DNA of 64,000 bases from Octopus sinensis (Eukaryota): positions 37,944,001-38,008,000 of the forward strand of contig NC_043012.1 in NCBI RefSeq assembly GCF_006345805.1. The letters run 5' to 3'. Under the pieces are notes generated by a model, which worked only from the letters and a program-made list of their open reading frames with translations, was not told the origin of the DNA and made no database searches. Shown one piece after another: positions 38,252 to 64,000 of the stretch. A program made the translations under genes and the position numbers. Positions within the stretch are counted from its first letter, which is position 1. Each line of letters opens with the position of its first letter.

Positions 38252-38513
38252 GTTAAATAAAATGAGACAACAATGCCAAGGTAATGTGAACTTTCTAGGA
38301 CATCTATTAAGAGAAAGGTGGCCTTACAGCTGTTTCAGGGATGTAAAAGATACCCCATCATCAGAGAGAATATGAGAGAGTTAAGTAGAAGGAAATAGCA
38401 GATATATATTAAAGATAGTTATGGCTGGGCTTTGGGGTTCTGTCTTAATCTAACCACTTTGCTGCTCTGTAACTTAAATTGTGCTTCTCTTTCGTATTTA
38501 TGAATTGCTGATG
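38252..38513 (-). mobile_element. ORF-less element between (TA)n tracts carrying a minimal type I hammerhead motif (38322-38367)
   Basis: Minus strand: tct CTGATGA t gggg tatcttttacat ccct GAAAC AGCT GTA agg; stem III is palindromic. Confidence 0.65.
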
Positions 38514-38565
38514 ATATATATATATATATATATATATATATATATATATAATATATATATACATA

Positions 38566-39292
38566 GGCGCAGGAGTAGCTGCGTGGTGAGTAGCTTGCTT
38601 ACCAACTACATGGTCCCGGGTTCAGTCCCACTGCGTGACATCTTGGGCAATTGTGTTCTACTATAACCTTGGGCCAACCAAAGACTTTTGAGTGGATTTG
38701 GTAGACGGAAACTGGAAGAAGCCCGTCGTATATATATGTTTGTGTGACTCCCCCCCCCAACATCGCTTGACAACCGATGCTGGTGGGTTTACGTCTCCGT
38801 AAACTAGCGGTTCGGCAAAAGAGACCGATAGAATAAGTACAAGGCTTACAAGGAATAAGCTCTGGGGTCGATTTGGTCGACTAAAGGCGCTGCTCCAGCA
38901 TGGACACAGTCAAATGACTGAAACAAGTAAAAGAGTATATATATATTATATATTTATAAAGTGCAGGCATGGCTGTGTGGTAGGAAGTATGCTTCCCAAC
39001 CACATGGTTCTGGGTTCAGTCCCACTGCGTGGCACCTTGGGCATGTGTCTTCTACAGTAGCTTCAGGTAGACAAAAACTGTAAGGAGCCTGTCCCACACA
39101 TACTTTGTGTGTCTTCGTGTTTGTCTGCCACCACTGCTTGATGCTGGTGTGTTTATGTCCCGGTGACTTAGCGGTTTGGCAAAAAGATCGATAAAATAAA
39201 TACTAGGCTCACAAGGAACAAGTCCTGGGGTCGATCTCTTCGATTAAAACCCTTGGTGATACTCCAGCATGGCCACTGAAGCAAGTGAAAGT
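38566..39292 (+). mobile_element. Two head-to-tail copies of the main tRNA-SINE (38566-38936, 38962-39292)
   Basis: Each has the ggttcagtcccactgcgtg head and the ctccagcatgg tail. Confidence 0.85.
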
Positions 39293-40199
39293 ATGTATAT
39301 ATATTAGTCATGCTTAGAATCTTTCACCCTGGGTCCAGAAGAACAATAAACCATTCCGAGTATCTGTAAATCAAATAAGAACTCGCTAGCTTGTAATGGT
39401 TTGAAGTTGTATAAGATATAAATTCAAACCAAATATTGATGTTTTGAATGTGTTTAATACGTGTGTTTCAGATCATTTTGCAAGAGAGAAAGAAAGGAAA
39501 TCATCTGTTACACATCTTCAGTGAAAACATTTCAAAATATTTGAAACTATGCCGTTACGTTCTGAGTTCAAATTCCGCCGAGGTCGACTTTGCCTTTCAT
39601 CCTTTAGCCCCTTGTGGGCAATAAAGAAATAAGAAACGTTAGCACGCCGGGCGAAATGCTTGGCGGTATTTCGTCTGTCTTTACATTCTGAATTCAATTT
39701 CCGCCGAGGTCGACTTTGCTTTTCATAAATTAAGTGCAAGTTCCGTACTGGGGTTGATGTAATCGACAGGCCCCCTCCCCCAAAATTTCGGGTCTTGTGT
39801 CTAGAGTAGAAAACAACACATGTACACACGCGACAGAAACTCCCGCCTACCAAATTCAATCACAATGTTTCAGTCGGCCCCAGGCAACAACAGAAGACAC
39901 TCGCCCAAGGTGCCATGCAGTGGGACTGAACCCGAAACCATGTCACTAGGAAGCATGCTTCCTAACAACACAGCCATGCCTGCGCATACAAGTAGGATGT
40001 ATGTTCATTAAATAGAAATGTAGTCTGTATGACGTTTTGTTTAACAGTGCAAGTGATGAAGTGTGTTGCCTTGGTTCCCTGTCTGCCAATAAAATAATAA
40101 ACGGCAGAAACGTCTTCCCTAGTTGGAAGTTGAAAATGCTGTAAACAAAAAATGGTATGGAGTGGAGTGGAGTGGATGGTCTCTGTGATGAGATCTTCA

Positions 40200-60075: not shown

Positions 60076-60729
60076 GATGCACTTATGTATTTATGCATGC
60101 ATGCACGCATGTAAATATGCAAATAACTATGTGTACACGTACGCATGTGTAATGGCGTGGTTTTATTTCATGAATAGATTTGTATTTCTGACCTGTGTCC
60201 TTAATTTGGCCTCCATCTCGTTCTTTAACCTTCATTAGTACTTCAAACTTCTTTTAACGCTCATAAAGTTAAGATTAGTTACTGTTGTCTAGATAATATC
60301 GCTTCATATACTGCTCTTGATAACAGAAAGAATAATAAGAATGTACATTTGATCTCCATGCAATCCCCAATTTCTGAAAATCCAATAACTGCCCACTTGA
60401 AAGATCTTGCCTCTCAGAGAGGTAGTCTAGATTCAATCAAACGCACTTAGTAGTAGTTCAATGGTATCAAGGGAGGATTTACTCAAGAATCTCGTTGGAG
60501 AATCAGGTTCAGAGACGGTGAAAACCTTCCCTCTCTCTCTTTCACTTAATCTGAAGACTTCGACAACAAGGATTTGATTTGCCAGCATTATATGCATCAT
60601 TCTTTCTTACTTGATGCTCCTAATTGCCAACGCTTCCTCCGTGAAAACCTGCATACTCTGAAATAATCTGCAATATTTCTATTCAGAAAAATCTATCTAA
60701 CATCATATTTTCGTTGTCAGAGCAACATT

Positions 60730-63450
60730 CTATCTATCTATCTATCTATCTATCTATCTATCTATCTATCTATCTATCTATCTATCTATCTATCTATCTA
60801 TCTATCTATCTATCTATCTATCTATCTATCTATCTATCTATCTATCTATCTATCTATCTATCTATCTACATATACGTACGTCTATCTAGTATGTAGCTCA
60901 CCCAGTACATATTCAAACTGCTTTATTTTCACCTCTTGTCTAAAACTGTTATTATTTCTCTCTGATGAATAAAGTGATCACTGTTGGTTAATTTATATAG
61001 CAGCCATTCAGAGGTTGAGCAAGAGATGCTCTTTAGTTCAACAGAAACTGAAGAGGCGAATAATCATCGAAACAGCTAGATATGCCACAAAGTGACTTGT
61101 ATCAAATATTCCATATTTCACTTTACGTAGTATAGTGAAAGTCCATTGTTTTCGCTTGGTCTATTCTCATATACCAAAAAAGTTATAAGATCGACTTCTT
61201 GTTGAGTCGTTGTGCACTCTCAGTGATTAAAATATCTTGCTAAGAGGAAATAAAATCCTACTGACTAGGTTTGACACACATACATACGTGCATGCTTGCA
61301 TGCATACATACATACATACATACATACATACATACATACATATATGTACGTTTGTATACCTATTTGTGCGTGTATGTGTGTGAGTGTATATATATATATA
61401 TATATATATTATATATATATATATATATATATATATATAGCATATCTATATGTACATTTGTCTGTGGTTCTGTCTCTCTATATAACTATCTATACCTATT
61501 TGTGCGTGTGTGTATATATATATATATATATATATACATGTGCATATCTATATGTACATCTGTCTGTCTGTCTATATAACTATCTATACATATATATAGA
61601 AAAAAGAGAAAGAGAGAGAGAGAGAGAGAGAGCGAGAGCATGTGTGTGTGTGTGTGTGTGTGTGTGTGTGTGTGTGTGAGAGAGAGAGAGAGAGAGAGAG
61701 AGAGAGAGAGAGAGAGAGAGAGAGAGAGAGAGAGAATGCGGTGATTATTAGCCATTAGCAACAAAGATCGTTTATCCGCAGTTCCATCCTCCATGCTTTA
61801 CATATCAAGCAATTTCCTTCTACGTCAAACACGGCAACCACACACACATACACGGTAATAACAAATACACGTAAAAATACGCATTTGCACGCACAAAATA
61901 CATACATGCATAACTATAAGTAAACACAAAAACACAAATACTTGAACACACAATACATACGTACGCACACATACACACACTCACATCAAACTACTTTTAA
62001 AATGGCGTTATAGCCTTAAAGATTCGGTGTCAGCTCAATATTTCACTGGCAGAGAAAAGTTCCAATTTTTCCTAAACTGTTTGACCTTCTCTTGAACCGT
62101 TTCTTACAATCAGAAACTCTTGCTAAGTGATACGGCAACCACACAAAAGCAAATGAAATGATTTTTGTCATAACTGCTGCGGTAGAGGCAGGGCGAACAC
62201 AAACAGCGTTCCGAACGTAAACCACGTGAAGTCAGATTCATTTAATTGCGAGATTTCGTATACACCGCATACATATCCCTCTGTCACATTCTGTCCGCCT
62301 CACTGCATTCATGCCTATGGGATTACCTCTTCCTTTACCGTCCTGTCTGTCTGTCTGTCTGTCTGTCTGTCTCTCTGTCTATCTATCTATCTATCTATCT
62401 ATCTATCTATCTATCTATCTATCTATCTATCTATCTATCTATCTATATTTATCTGTCTGTCTGTCTGTCTAAGCTCCCACATACATGCTCATACGTTGTC
62501 ATACATACTCGCTCAGACATACACCCACACGCATACAGTTGCATATGCATACACGGGCGCGCGCTTACACACACACACTCACACAGAGATACACTTACAC
62601 ACAGGTACACTCACATACATGCACACATACATGCATACACACGCTCACACATATAATTACACACACACATACGCACACACACACACACATACACACACTC
62701 AGACAGAACATATACGCGCGCGTCCAACGGAGCTACTTTATTCGCTGTATTTCGGCATCTGAGATAATGTCAAAATTGGAATATTTTAATATACTTGAGT
62801 GAGTTGGAATCCGTGTGTGTGTGTGAGCCTGTGGGTGTGTGTGAATGTGTGTGTTCGTGTGAGTGTGTGTGAATGTGTGTGAATGCGTGTGAATGTGTGT
62901 GCGTGTGAATGTGTGGGTGTGTACGCATGTGTGGATGTGAGTCTATATACCTGAATATACACTATATAGACGTGTATGCGTGTGGGCGCGTATGTAATTA
63001 TGTATGCATGCAGATAATATATATATGCATATACACATACAAACACATACACCCATATATATGCACATAGATATATATACATACATATACATTAACATAT
63101 ATACATATACACATTCATATACATTAACATGTATACAAATGCATGTACATACACATATCCAGACATATTCACATACACAAACCCATACATACACATACAT
63201 GCACACTCATAAATATATAATGCAAACACATGCTTCCAGTCATATACACATAGATATACATATACATACACATATAATCAGATATACAGATTTCTATATA
63301 TACACACACATCCAGATTTATACGCATAGATCTACATATATATACACATACTACACTTGGACATATACAAAATATATTTCCACACATACACATACTCCCA
63401 CAATCATCAATTCTCTCTCTCTCTTTCTCTCTCTCTCTATGTATATATAA
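60730..63450. repeat. Dense simple-repeat zone: (TCTA)n, (TACA)n, (TA)n, (GA)n, (TG/CA)n
   Basis: Directly visible, e.g. (TCTA)n 60729-60868 and (GA)n 61678-61735. Confidence 0.9.
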
Positions 63451-64000
63451 TTATAAAATTATATGTATATATAAATTTTTAAAAATGGAACAAAAAACGC
63501 AATACAGGACAATAAAGCATTCGCACAGATAGACGATACAAAGGCGGACAAGAAAAACAATTAGAAGGACACACTTAGCCAATTGAGGTGTGTTGTGTAA
63601 AGAACGTATAAGAGTACAAATAGAGCACGTTCACCCTTAAAATTCCCAAAAAGCCGGTAGTATTCTTATGGTGTGCTACCAATTCTAGTCTTAGGTATTC
63701 CTCGTGTGTGAAAATAAAAAGTAAAAAGTAAAGAAGTCAGAAGGGGGAGCAAGTACGGTTCGGCAGCTTTTTAATCGCTGCAAATGTTTCGATACTTACA
63801 GATCCTCGTATATACAGGATTTAAAGTTAAATTTAAATTAAATTATGTAACGATTTACCTGTAGAAGAAGCTCTATATGTATCTCCTCAGGTGATACTCA
63901 GTTGCTGTCCAGGTAAGTAAATCTAGATTTCCATGCTACAACATCCATGGCTAAAAAGCTGCCCGACCGTACTTACTCTTCCTTGTCACTAGGTGTCGCT

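What the first reader, a model, noticed from the sequence alone, without database searches (positions are those of the whole stretch)
38252..63894. A set of unrelated ORF-less, hammerhead-carrying elements in (TA)n tracts next to a Penelope relic: candidate cephalopod retrozyme system
Seen: at least six mutually dissimilar sequence families in 64 kb carry a type I hammerhead core (YUGANRA..stem II..GAAAC), at 378/7930, 11600, 38340, 44207, 56700/56940, 61048 and 63790-63890. None encodes a protein. The three best-preserved elements sit between (TA)n tracts, and three show 5' inverted duplications. Established: Penelope-like elements (PLEs) have hammerhead-containing pseudo-LTRs and make inverted/partial-tandem insertions; non-LTR retrozymes of a few hundred nt form self-cleaved circular RNAs in other metazoans and are thought to use PLE proteins. 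Inference: this genome hosts a diverse, partly young population of ribozyme retroelements that target TA microsatellites, mobilised by relatives of the PLE at 45700-47100. I cannot tell from the window whether these families are already catalogued.
Basis: partly seen in the sequence, partly recalled or inferred. Interest (0 to 1): 0.8.

Follow-up and report, generated by a model that had tools for sequence, protein, structure and literature searches.

The report
Octopus hammerhead retrozyme with Penelope footprints
A 363-base non-coding repeat with many copies in octopus DNA carries a predicted self-cutting hammerhead RNA and sits here between TA microsatellites in the tandem-plus-inverted pattern typical of Penelope retrotransposons, so it is likely an octopus member of the known 'retrozyme' class, while most of the other flagged motifs are likely decayed Penelope ends.

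Summary
The window is octopus DNA: the host exon is 100% identical to Octopus sinensis KIAA2026-like. The finding mixes two known things.

(1) One good retrozyme candidate at 43938-44471. It is a 363-nt ORF-less unit with an intact hammerhead core (U3-A8 variant) that folds as a hammerhead. It lies between (TA)n tracts as 1.15 tandem units plus a 122-nt inverted piece. Public contigs show many copies, a head-to-tail junction in 4 of 4 runs laid, three other inversion breakpoints and a second TA-joined end. These are Penelope-like element (PLE) insertion marks.

(2) Other motifs resembling PLE minimal hammerheads, mostly decayed and none in tandem. Those at 11600, 61048 and 63890 do not exceed chance in my core scan.

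Rfam recognises none of the motifs. Cleavage, expression and circles are untested. No sequence link to the relic was found, and no intact close relative of it appeared. No octopus retrozyme turned up in my literature searches; Dfam and Repbase were unavailable. The scan noted similar elements in other genomes, but not this sequence. Verdict: new member of a known kind.

The parts
43670..43937 (.). Left (TA)n tract flanking the retrozyme-like insertion
43938..44059 (-). Inverted copy of 44279-44400 (122 of 122 identical). Its outer end abuts (TA)n; it joins the forward copy through a 4-nt overlap at 44056-44059
44056..44108 (+). 53-nt upstream partial unit, a copy of 44419-44471 with 3 differences: the partial tandem
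44109..44471 (+). 363-nt ORF-less monomer, 41.6% GC, strongly self-paired when folded as a circle. Many copies in public runs; head-to-tail junction seen in 4 of 4 runs laid
44182..44260 (+). Type I hammerhead: core 44207-44236 (U3-A8 variant), 6-bp helix I, internal loop and extension, 4-bp helix II with a 5-nt loop, 2-bp palindromic helix III; predicted cut after 44236
44401..44471 (+). 'Tail' present at the right end only. Other copies end in TA-rich sequence at 44407-44410
   Evidence: (table 7)
44472..44502 (.). Right (TA)n tract
38252..38513 (-). Solo TA-flanked element with an intact-core minimal hammerhead (38364 to 38325): extra base after A9, palindromic helix III, 3-bp helix I. No tandem, no inversion, no strong fold
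56579..57208 (.). Head-to-head inverted pair (arms 56581-56830 and 56855-57104, 96% complementary) with a ~100-nt tail on the right, between (TA)n tracts. Hammerhead cores at 56747 (minus, intact core, extra base before G12) and 56938 (plus, core change at position 4)
27755..28058 (.). Older head-to-head inverted pair with hammerhead cores at 27850 (minus) and 27968 (plus); right end abuts (TA)n at 28067.
350..464 (+). Minimal hammerhead (core 378-413, G12 changed) in a short repeat flanked by AAT-type repeats rather than TA; intronic
7849..7985 (-). Second copy of the 378 family (core 7935 to 7900, helix II damaged) with a 25-nt inverted piece at 7961-7985; intronic
11336..11676 (-). TA-flanked element with a decayed hammerhead-like motif (11609 to 11575); not reported by the relaxed scan; intronic
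61048..61077 (+). Decayed hammerhead-like motif with no recognisable cleavage site or helix I; not above chance
63640..64000 (-). Rod-folding element cut by the window edge. Hammerhead-like core 63890 to 63783 with a ~100-nt helix II region, enclosed by a 23-bp inverted repeat (63751-63773 / 63952-63974). Possible second retrozyme-like family, decayed at the cleavage site
45616..46955 (+). 5'-truncated, frameshifted PLE relic: end of the reverse transcriptase (frame of 45616) and C-terminal GIY-YIG endonuclease (frame of 46044), with a decayed Cys linker motif
47056..47086 (+). The relic's own decayed minimal hammerhead (U3-A8 type, one core change), 100 nt after the stop codon and 25 nt before the (AAT)n at 47112-47169.
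2..34829 (+). Host gene KIAA2026-like (exons matched from 2 to 34829), not part of the elements. The motifs at 378, 7935, 11609 and 27850/27968 lie in its introns

Best explanation
The stretch 43938-44471 is an ORF-less, many-copy 363-nt repeat with an intact hammerhead core, inserted between TA tracts as a partial tandem plus an inverted piece; it is likely a non-LTR retrozyme whose RNA would be cut to unit length by the ribozyme and likely copied into TA microsatellites by a Penelope-like (PLE) reverse transcriptase-endonuclease supplied in trans.

Proposed steps:
1. Tandem copies are transcribed (inferred).
2. The hammerhead cuts after 44236 and releases 363-nt monomers, which may be ligated to circles (inferred from mussel, coral and axolotl retrozymes).
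3. A PLE protein nicks both strands of an AT-rich target and starts cDNA at two internal sites about 65 nt apart, ~44400-44410 and 44471 (ends shown; role inferred from the anole PLE).
4. The right cDNA ran 416 nt, more than one unit; the left ran 122 nt; the two joined head to head through a 4-nt overlap (structure shown; mechanism inferred).

The remaining motifs are likely solo or inverted ends of several other, older PLE-type families carrying minimal hammerheads, as the relic's own 3' end illustrates. 63640-64000 may be a second, decayed retrozyme-like family.
For: Ribozyme. It is the best-scoring core in the window, unmatched in 211 shuffles. The hammerhead is the minimum-energy fold, z -3.3. 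Helix sizes of 6, 4 and 2 bp with a palindromic loop match the 'canonical' metazoan type I motif in PMC4209133. U3-A8 is a natural variant reported active in vitro (PMC3088659 passage; also PMC4209133). Among the 40 of 66 variant rows shown, the only change within 44207-44213 is the free position 7. 44204 G>A turns a G-U pair into A-U, and 44196 G>A with 44245 C>T turns G-C into A-U.

Unit. 363 nt, 41.6% GC, stops in all six frames of the circle. Circular fold -120.4 against -85.5 +/- 5.6 kcal/mol; 0 of 60 shuffles fold as well. The size matches mussel retrozymes (350-390 bp, PMC7229834).

Family. 3889 contig pieces were laid in run X1, 2856 of them >=95% alike. Summed depth is 2.7e5-1.6e6 in 25 of 28 bins, against 34-220 for the single contigs listed. 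The joint 44471->44109 occurs in 4 of 4 runs, with 7 contigs and three letter variants in X1. Share running on into unlike sequence is 0 in X1.

PLE marks. Three strand-switch joints at other breakpoints, and loose ends into TA-rich sequence at 44407-44410 and before 44177. These match the partial tandem, inverted truncated copy, one-sided tail and microsatellite bias in PMC8557442, and the two-strand nicking with two start sites in PMC11167929.
Against: This locus holds one hammerhead only (1.15 units), so it fails the two-unit criterion of the 2026 preprint.

The tandem joint's summed depth in X1 is 499, tiny against the unit's depth. Short contigs may explain this, but I cannot show that most copies are tandem. 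Only X1 (41) and X13 (33) bridge the joint by 31 or more letters; X11 (27) and X14 (21) do not. The joint stands in the DNA-like run, so it is no sign of a circle.

What lies beyond the unit's ends in the 240 overhanging X1 pieces is not reported, so an ORF-bearing minority is not excluded.

No Rfam hammerhead model matches. In the preprint, 8 of 9 predicted frog retrozyme dimers did not cleave. In the anole PLE the hammerhead needed the protein and was dispensable for insertion.

The two 53-nt copies differ at 3 sites while the 122-nt inverted copies are identical. That fits a genomic multimer transcript better than one circle read twice. The tails (~65 and ~100 nt) are longer than the 30-40 bp given in PMC8557442. 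No partner PLE was identified.
Confidence: 0.62

Rival explanations
1. The 363-nt unit is the pseudo-LTR of an autonomous PLE, or a deletion derivative of one. It spreads as truncated ends of a long transcript, and the tandem joints come from template jumps or local duplication, with no independent monomer or circle.
For: All the insertion marks are PLE marks. Depth of the 5' part is about half that of the 3' part. A 2427-nt contig in X13 ends in a relative of 44191-44287 with 15 differences in 97 nt (record 21). Frog retrozymes match PLE termini. Non-autonomous PLEs with head-to-tail insertions are known (PMC8557442).
Against: The share running on into unlike sequence is 0 in X1, and the tandem joint recurs in variant forms. 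The hammerhead is the canonical type with an extended helix I, not the minimal PLE type. The monomer folds as a closed rod. No ORF lies in the unit, and no PLE coding sequence lies nearer than the unrelated relic.
Confidence: 0.25
2. One reading: all six or seven families are independent retrozymes mobilised by relatives of the relic at 45616-46955.
For: Seven of 11 motif positions lie near (TA)n. Four elements have inversions. 63640-64000 and the 56-kb arms fold better than shuffles (z -4.5, -2.8, -2.3). Relatives of the relic carry a Cys linker finger of the kind proposed to favour microsatellite targets.
Against: No tandem unit was found for any other element in the window. 38364, 11609, 61048 and 27850 show no strong fold. 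Minimal-type motifs are typical of PLE ends. The relic ends in (AAT)n, shares no sequence with the elements, and has no intact close relative among the 150 best of 865 hits.
Confidence: 0.08
3. 43938-44400 is a TA-targeting miniature inverted-repeat DNA transposon or a satellite, and the hammerhead is a passenger.
For: It has perfect 122-bp inverted repeats and TA flanks.
Against: The family continues 71 nt beyond the right repeat at full depth. Strand-switch joints in other copies fall at three different places, and none matches this locus's breakpoint. The core is spared by the listed variants.
Confidence: 0.05

Closest known systems
Metazoan non-LTR retrozymes (Cervera & de la Pena 2020, PMC7229834), especially the 350-390-bp mussel repeats; Li, Clavereau & Pollet 2026 preprint 10.64898/2026.07.22.740005
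   Same: Type I hammerhead in a short, low-GC, ORF-less, self-paired unit that forms head-to-tail junctions; PLEs in the same genome.
   Different: U3-A8 core, not recognised by Rfam. This copy is a dispersed 1.15-mer with an inverted piece and a tail in (TA)n, not an array. The parts of those papers that I read do not describe such insertion marks. Cleavage and circles are not shown here.
Minimal hammerheads of PLE pseudo-LTRs (Cervera & de la Pena 2014, PMC4209133)
   Same: Extra base after A9, palindromic helix III, short helix I, U3-A8 variants, mostly solo copies, pairs on opposite strands 100-700 bp apart. Fits 378/7935, 38364 and 47056 well, and the inverted pairs at 27.8 and 56.8 kb in layout.
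   Different: Only 47056 is attached to a PLE coding region here. The 56747 and 27850 motifs have longer helix III regions, and 56747 has its extra base before G12.
Penelope-like elements with C-terminal GIY-YIG (Neptune/Nematis-type linker; PMC8557442) and the anole Poseidon element PAc (PMC11167929)
   Same: The relic has RT followed by GIY-YIG and a 3' hammerhead. The insertions show a partial tandem, an inverted truncated copy, a one-sided tail and microsatellite targets.
   Different: The relic is broken, and its Cys/His motifs are decayed. Its clade rests on a motif, not on a tree. Tails here are 65-100 nt.
Non-autonomous Chlamys PLEs such as MRC1 (PMC8557442, passage)
   Same: ORF-less PLE dependants with pseudo-LTRs and head-to-tail copies.
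   Different: Those resemble their autonomous partner at the 3' end, and Chlamys elements mostly lack hammerheads. No partner is known here.

Membership tests
Metazoan non-LTR retrozyme (44109-44471) | Canonical-type type I hammerhead (6-bp helix I, 4-bp helix II, short palindromic helix III) | tested here: met
   The loop-loop contact is inferred, not tested; no Rfam hit
Metazoan non-LTR retrozyme (44109-44471) | Head-to-tail monomer of 150-450 bp | tested here: met
   363-nt period in the window; joint in 4 of 4 runs, bridged by 31 or more letters in 2 of 4
Metazoan non-LTR retrozyme (44109-44471) | Two or more consecutive units each with a complete hammerhead (the preprint's 'active' criterion) | tested here: inconclusive
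   Not met at this locus; no contig spans a whole unit; no genome held
Metazoan non-LTR retrozyme (44109-44471) | No ORF, GC below 50%, strongly self-paired monomer | tested here: met
Metazoan non-LTR retrozyme (44109-44471) | Self-cleavage in vitro | not testable with these tools
   Needs a transcription assay
Metazoan non-LTR retrozyme (44109-44471) | Unit-length linear and circular RNA in vivo | not testable with these tools
   Only contigs were laid, which cannot show strand, ends or circles
Metazoan non-LTR retrozyme (44109-44471) | Target-site duplication longer than 4 bp; absence of PBS/PPT | not tested
   TA tracts hide any duplication; PBS/PPT were not searched
Metazoan non-LTR retrozyme (all other motifs) | Tandem unit | tested here: not met
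   No direct repeat within or beside any of them in the window; not examined in sequencing runs
PLE minimal hammerhead | Extra base after A9 and palindromic helix III | tested here: met
   378, 38364 and 47056; partly for 7935 and 27968
PLE minimal hammerhead | Lies in the terminal repeat of a PLE | tested here: inconclusive
   Met for 47056 only (100 nt after the relic's stop). No PLE coding sequence lies beside the others
Rfam hammerhead families | Covariance-model match | tested here: not met
EN+ Penelope-like element (45616-46955) | Reverse transcriptase followed by C-terminal GIY-YIG | tested here: met
   GIY-YIG E 6.6e-4, below Pfam's cut-off; 27% and 32% identity to consecutive parts of P0001, which has RVT_1 and GIY-YIG
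EN+ Penelope-like element (45616-46955) | Single intact ORF with CCHH motif and pseudo-LTRs | tested here: not met
   Frameshifted, 5'-truncated, motif residues changed, no terminal repeat pair
Neptune/Nematis clade | Cys linker finger before GIY-YIG; placement on an RT tree | tested here: inconclusive
   A decayed motif aligns with fingers of relatives; 16 of 44 relatives scored carry a CX2-8CxxC motif; no tree was built

The most novel reading that the evidence does not exclude
The 363-nt family is a currently active cephalopod retrozyme, present in thousands of copies and expressed as a circle. Its copies record PLE-driven integration directly: two fixed internal start sites, cDNA primed from both strands of a TA target, and more-than-unit-length copying. 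Its autonomous partner is the 2.4-kb sequence ending in a related hammerhead (X13 record 21). That would turn the proposed retrozyme-PLE partnership into a defined RNA-protein pair that can be reconstituted.
Probability: 0.25. Interest if true: 0.68.

Novelty: new member of a known kind. Interest (0 to 1): 0.45.

Why it matters
Which machinery moves animal retrozymes is still argued from co-occurrence and terminal similarity (PMC7229834; PMC7761336 passage; the 2026 preprint). A young, many-copy family whose insertions carry PLE-specific marks gives a direct way to test this, in a group where my searches found no retrozyme report. It also shows that Rfam scans miss such families. The other motifs are ordinary PLE debris of a kind reported as abundant in invertebrate genomes.

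Tried and rejected
Ribozyme scans. Rfam found no hammerhead.

Genome and collections. No whole genome is held, so copy number, TA enrichment and PLE linkage could not be counted genome-wide. Exact hammerhead patterns found nothing in metagenome or viral contigs. 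One host exon search gave no hit.

Sequencing runs. No RNA holder listed: 24 rows, 20 holding part of 43938-44471, from 11 studies and 6 organism labels; five holders were only guessed to be RNA. I laid 4 of the 24 runs, and only the 363-nt unit. X11, X13 and X14 are guessed RNA and may hold DNA, so they say nothing on expression. No other element was examined in runs (one call only).

Earlier notes. None for this genome or this sequence.

Literature searches for an octopus or cephalopod retrozyme: (the last gave 0 papers). The nearest was a count of 235 Rfam hammerhead-1 loci in giant squid (PMC6962438 passage). PMC5785218 is not held, and the supplement of PMC7229834 was unreadable. Preprint supplements are closed. 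These, Dfam and Repbase could list the family.

Readings rejected: a MITE reading of 43938-44400; the 63751/63974 inverted repeat as a 5' inversion (it encloses the ribozyme); proximity to the relic as evidence of partnership.

Full report
Setting. The 1758-aa ORF at 29556-34832 is 100% identical to Octopus sinensis KIAA2026-like and 92% identical to the O. bimaculoides protein. Exons of this gene match from position 2 to 34829. No whole genome is held.

Are the motifs real? Rfam finds no hammerhead in the window or in three elements scanned alone. A strict structural descriptor finds three intact cores (44207+, 38364-, 27850-), against 0.36 per shuffled window. With one mismatch allowed the excess disappears (7 against 4.9). 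A relaxed score, set up after I had seen the motifs and so flattering to them, ranks 44207, 27850, 38364, 378, 56747 and 47056 as the top six hits, each expected 0.26 times or less per shuffled window. It puts 56938, 63890, 7935 and 27968 at chance level and does not report 11609 or 61048. 7935, 56938 and 27968 are rescued by homology to better copies, and 63890 partly by its fold. Of 12 local folds, only 44207 and 56747 adopt a three-way hammerhead shape, and 378 forms helices I and II.

Two classes of motif. PMC4209133 (parts 1-2 of 4 read) separates canonical metazoan hammerheads from the minimal ones of PLE terminal repeats. Canonical motifs have 6-bp and 4-bp helices and a short palindromic helix III. 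Minimal motifs have an extra base after A9 and a short helix I, and are mostly solo or paired on opposite strands. 44207 is of the first kind: 6-bp helix I, then an internal loop and a long extension, 4-bp helix II, 2-bp helix III. Its loop-and-bulge layout resembles the Schistosoma hammerhead; that resemblance is recalled, not from a call. Its U3-A8 core is a described natural variant. 378/7935, 38364 and 47056 are of the second kind.

The insertion at 43938-44471. From left to right: (TA)n; an exact 122-nt inverted copy of 44279-44400; a 4-nt overlap; a 53-nt copy of 44419-44471 with 3 differences; the 363-nt unit 44109-44471; (TA)n. The unit is 41.6% GC, has stops in all six frames read as a circle, and folds at z -6.2 as a circle. 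As a linear strand it folds at z -4.8. Fourteen random 360-nt controls gave 3.1 to -2.8, except one that fell on this element (-7.1).

The family in public data. The stretch is held in part by 20 of 24 listed runs from 11 studies. I laid the unit on 4 runs. In X1, 3889 pieces were laid: 1107 at 99% or more, 1749 at 95-99%, 913 at 90-95% and 120 below 90%; short contigs bias this towards high identity. Summed depth is thousands of times that of single contigs. The tool warns that this is no copy number, so I conclude only 'many copies'. The joint from 44471 back to 44109 stands in all four runs, with three letter variants in X1, so it is not this locus alone. Its summed depth (499) is small, however, and only two runs bridge it by 31 or more letters. 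Three strand-switch joints lie at other breakpoints. Loose ends run into TA-rich sequence at 44407-44410 and before 44177 (24 of 93 loose-end rows shown). The family thus has variable inversions and two 3' ends about 65 nt apart. Listed variants spare the first core block except at the free position 7, and include changes that keep helix I paired. A divergent subfamily differs around 44221-44232, including one contig (seen in two runs) that appears to have lost G12. The three smaller runs are only guessed to be RNA and are contigs, so expression and circularity stay open.

Mechanism. PMC8557442 (passages) lists partial tandems, an adjacent inverted truncated copy, a one-sided tail and microsatellite bias as PLE marks. 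PMC11167929 (parts 1-2 of 4) shows that a PLE protein nicks and extends both strands of AT-rich DNA and starts at two internal RNA sites whose spacing equals the tail. The insertion at 43938-44471 fits this: one cDNA from each flank, starting at the two ends seen in other copies and meeting head to head, with the right one longer than a unit. The pairs at 56579-57208 and 27755-28058 have the same outward-facing layout, the former with a ~100-nt tail. The layout is shown; the PLE enzyme, cleavage, transcription and circles are inferred. The 3 differences between the 53-nt copies suggest a multimer transcript as template rather than a single circle.

The relic. 45616-46955 encodes the end of an RT and a GIY-YIG domain in two frames, with decayed Cys/His motifs. 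It shares no sequence with any hammerhead element. Among the 150 best of 865 relatives, those at 54-68% identity are mostly pieces of 65-217 aa (one 332-aa protein matches over only ~50 residues), and the long proteins are about 31-37% identical at best. Nothing ties its lineage to the young family.

Comparison with what is known. Non-LTR retrozymes are described from coral, mussel and axolotl (PMC7229834, parts 1-4 of 6 read; supplement unreadable). They are linked to PLE termini in frogs (2026 preprint, parts 1-3 of 5; supplements closed). I saw passages only of PMC7761336, PMC3088659, PMC6765202, PMC8969392, PMC6962438 and PMC12602865. PMC5785218 was seen as a title only. Searches gave no octopus retrozyme. 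Repeat libraries could not be checked. Earlier scan notes describe a TA-targeting, PLE-pattern tandem repeat without a hammerhead and a sea-squirt retrozyme in other genomes; these are unchecked leads.

Verdict. One element is very likely a new octopus member of the retrozyme / non-autonomous PLE continuum, with unusually clear PLE insertion marks. The rest is mostly ordinary decayed PLE ends. Interest 0.45.

Noticed in passing
44177-44188 (+), 63989-64000 (-), 13124-13135 (-): A near-identical 12-nt motif lies upstream of the hammerhead in two otherwise dissimilar elements, and once more with no hammerhead seen nearby. The pattern was defined after the fact, so the shuffle count of 0 is biased. 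It recalls a CTCF-type site (from memory).
   Followed up: partly
Run X13, record 21, matching 44191-44287: A 2427-nt contig ends in a relative of the hammerhead region with 15 differences. It could be an autonomous PLE or a host transcript; it could not be fetched.
   Followed up: no
27850/27968 and 11609: The bases at and after the cleavage site are complementary to the start of the core itself, which would favour an inactive pairing. In the 27.8-kb pair this is shared by both arms.
   Followed up: partly
56815-56870: The centre of the inverted pair holds short slipped duplications of a 14-nt word, as expected from template switching.
   Followed up: no
47495-55185: Non-LTR retrotransposon RT pieces (RVT_1 at 47495-48745; a likely C-terminal piece at 54724-55185) lie on either side of a 4.6-kb (AAT)n array at 50148-54749.
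   Followed up: no
19577-19855, with relatives at 1553-2041, 10896-11299, 18915-19138: A repeat family with a 101-nt internal tandem unit; at least two copies end beside (TA)n. No hammerhead was reported there.
   Followed up: no
36257-36486 and 26852-27222: Minisatellites of 36 nt (6.4 copies, 97%) and 23 nt (16 copies).
   Followed up: no
57994-58392 (-): A zf-RVT domain fragment of another non-LTR element.
   Followed up: no
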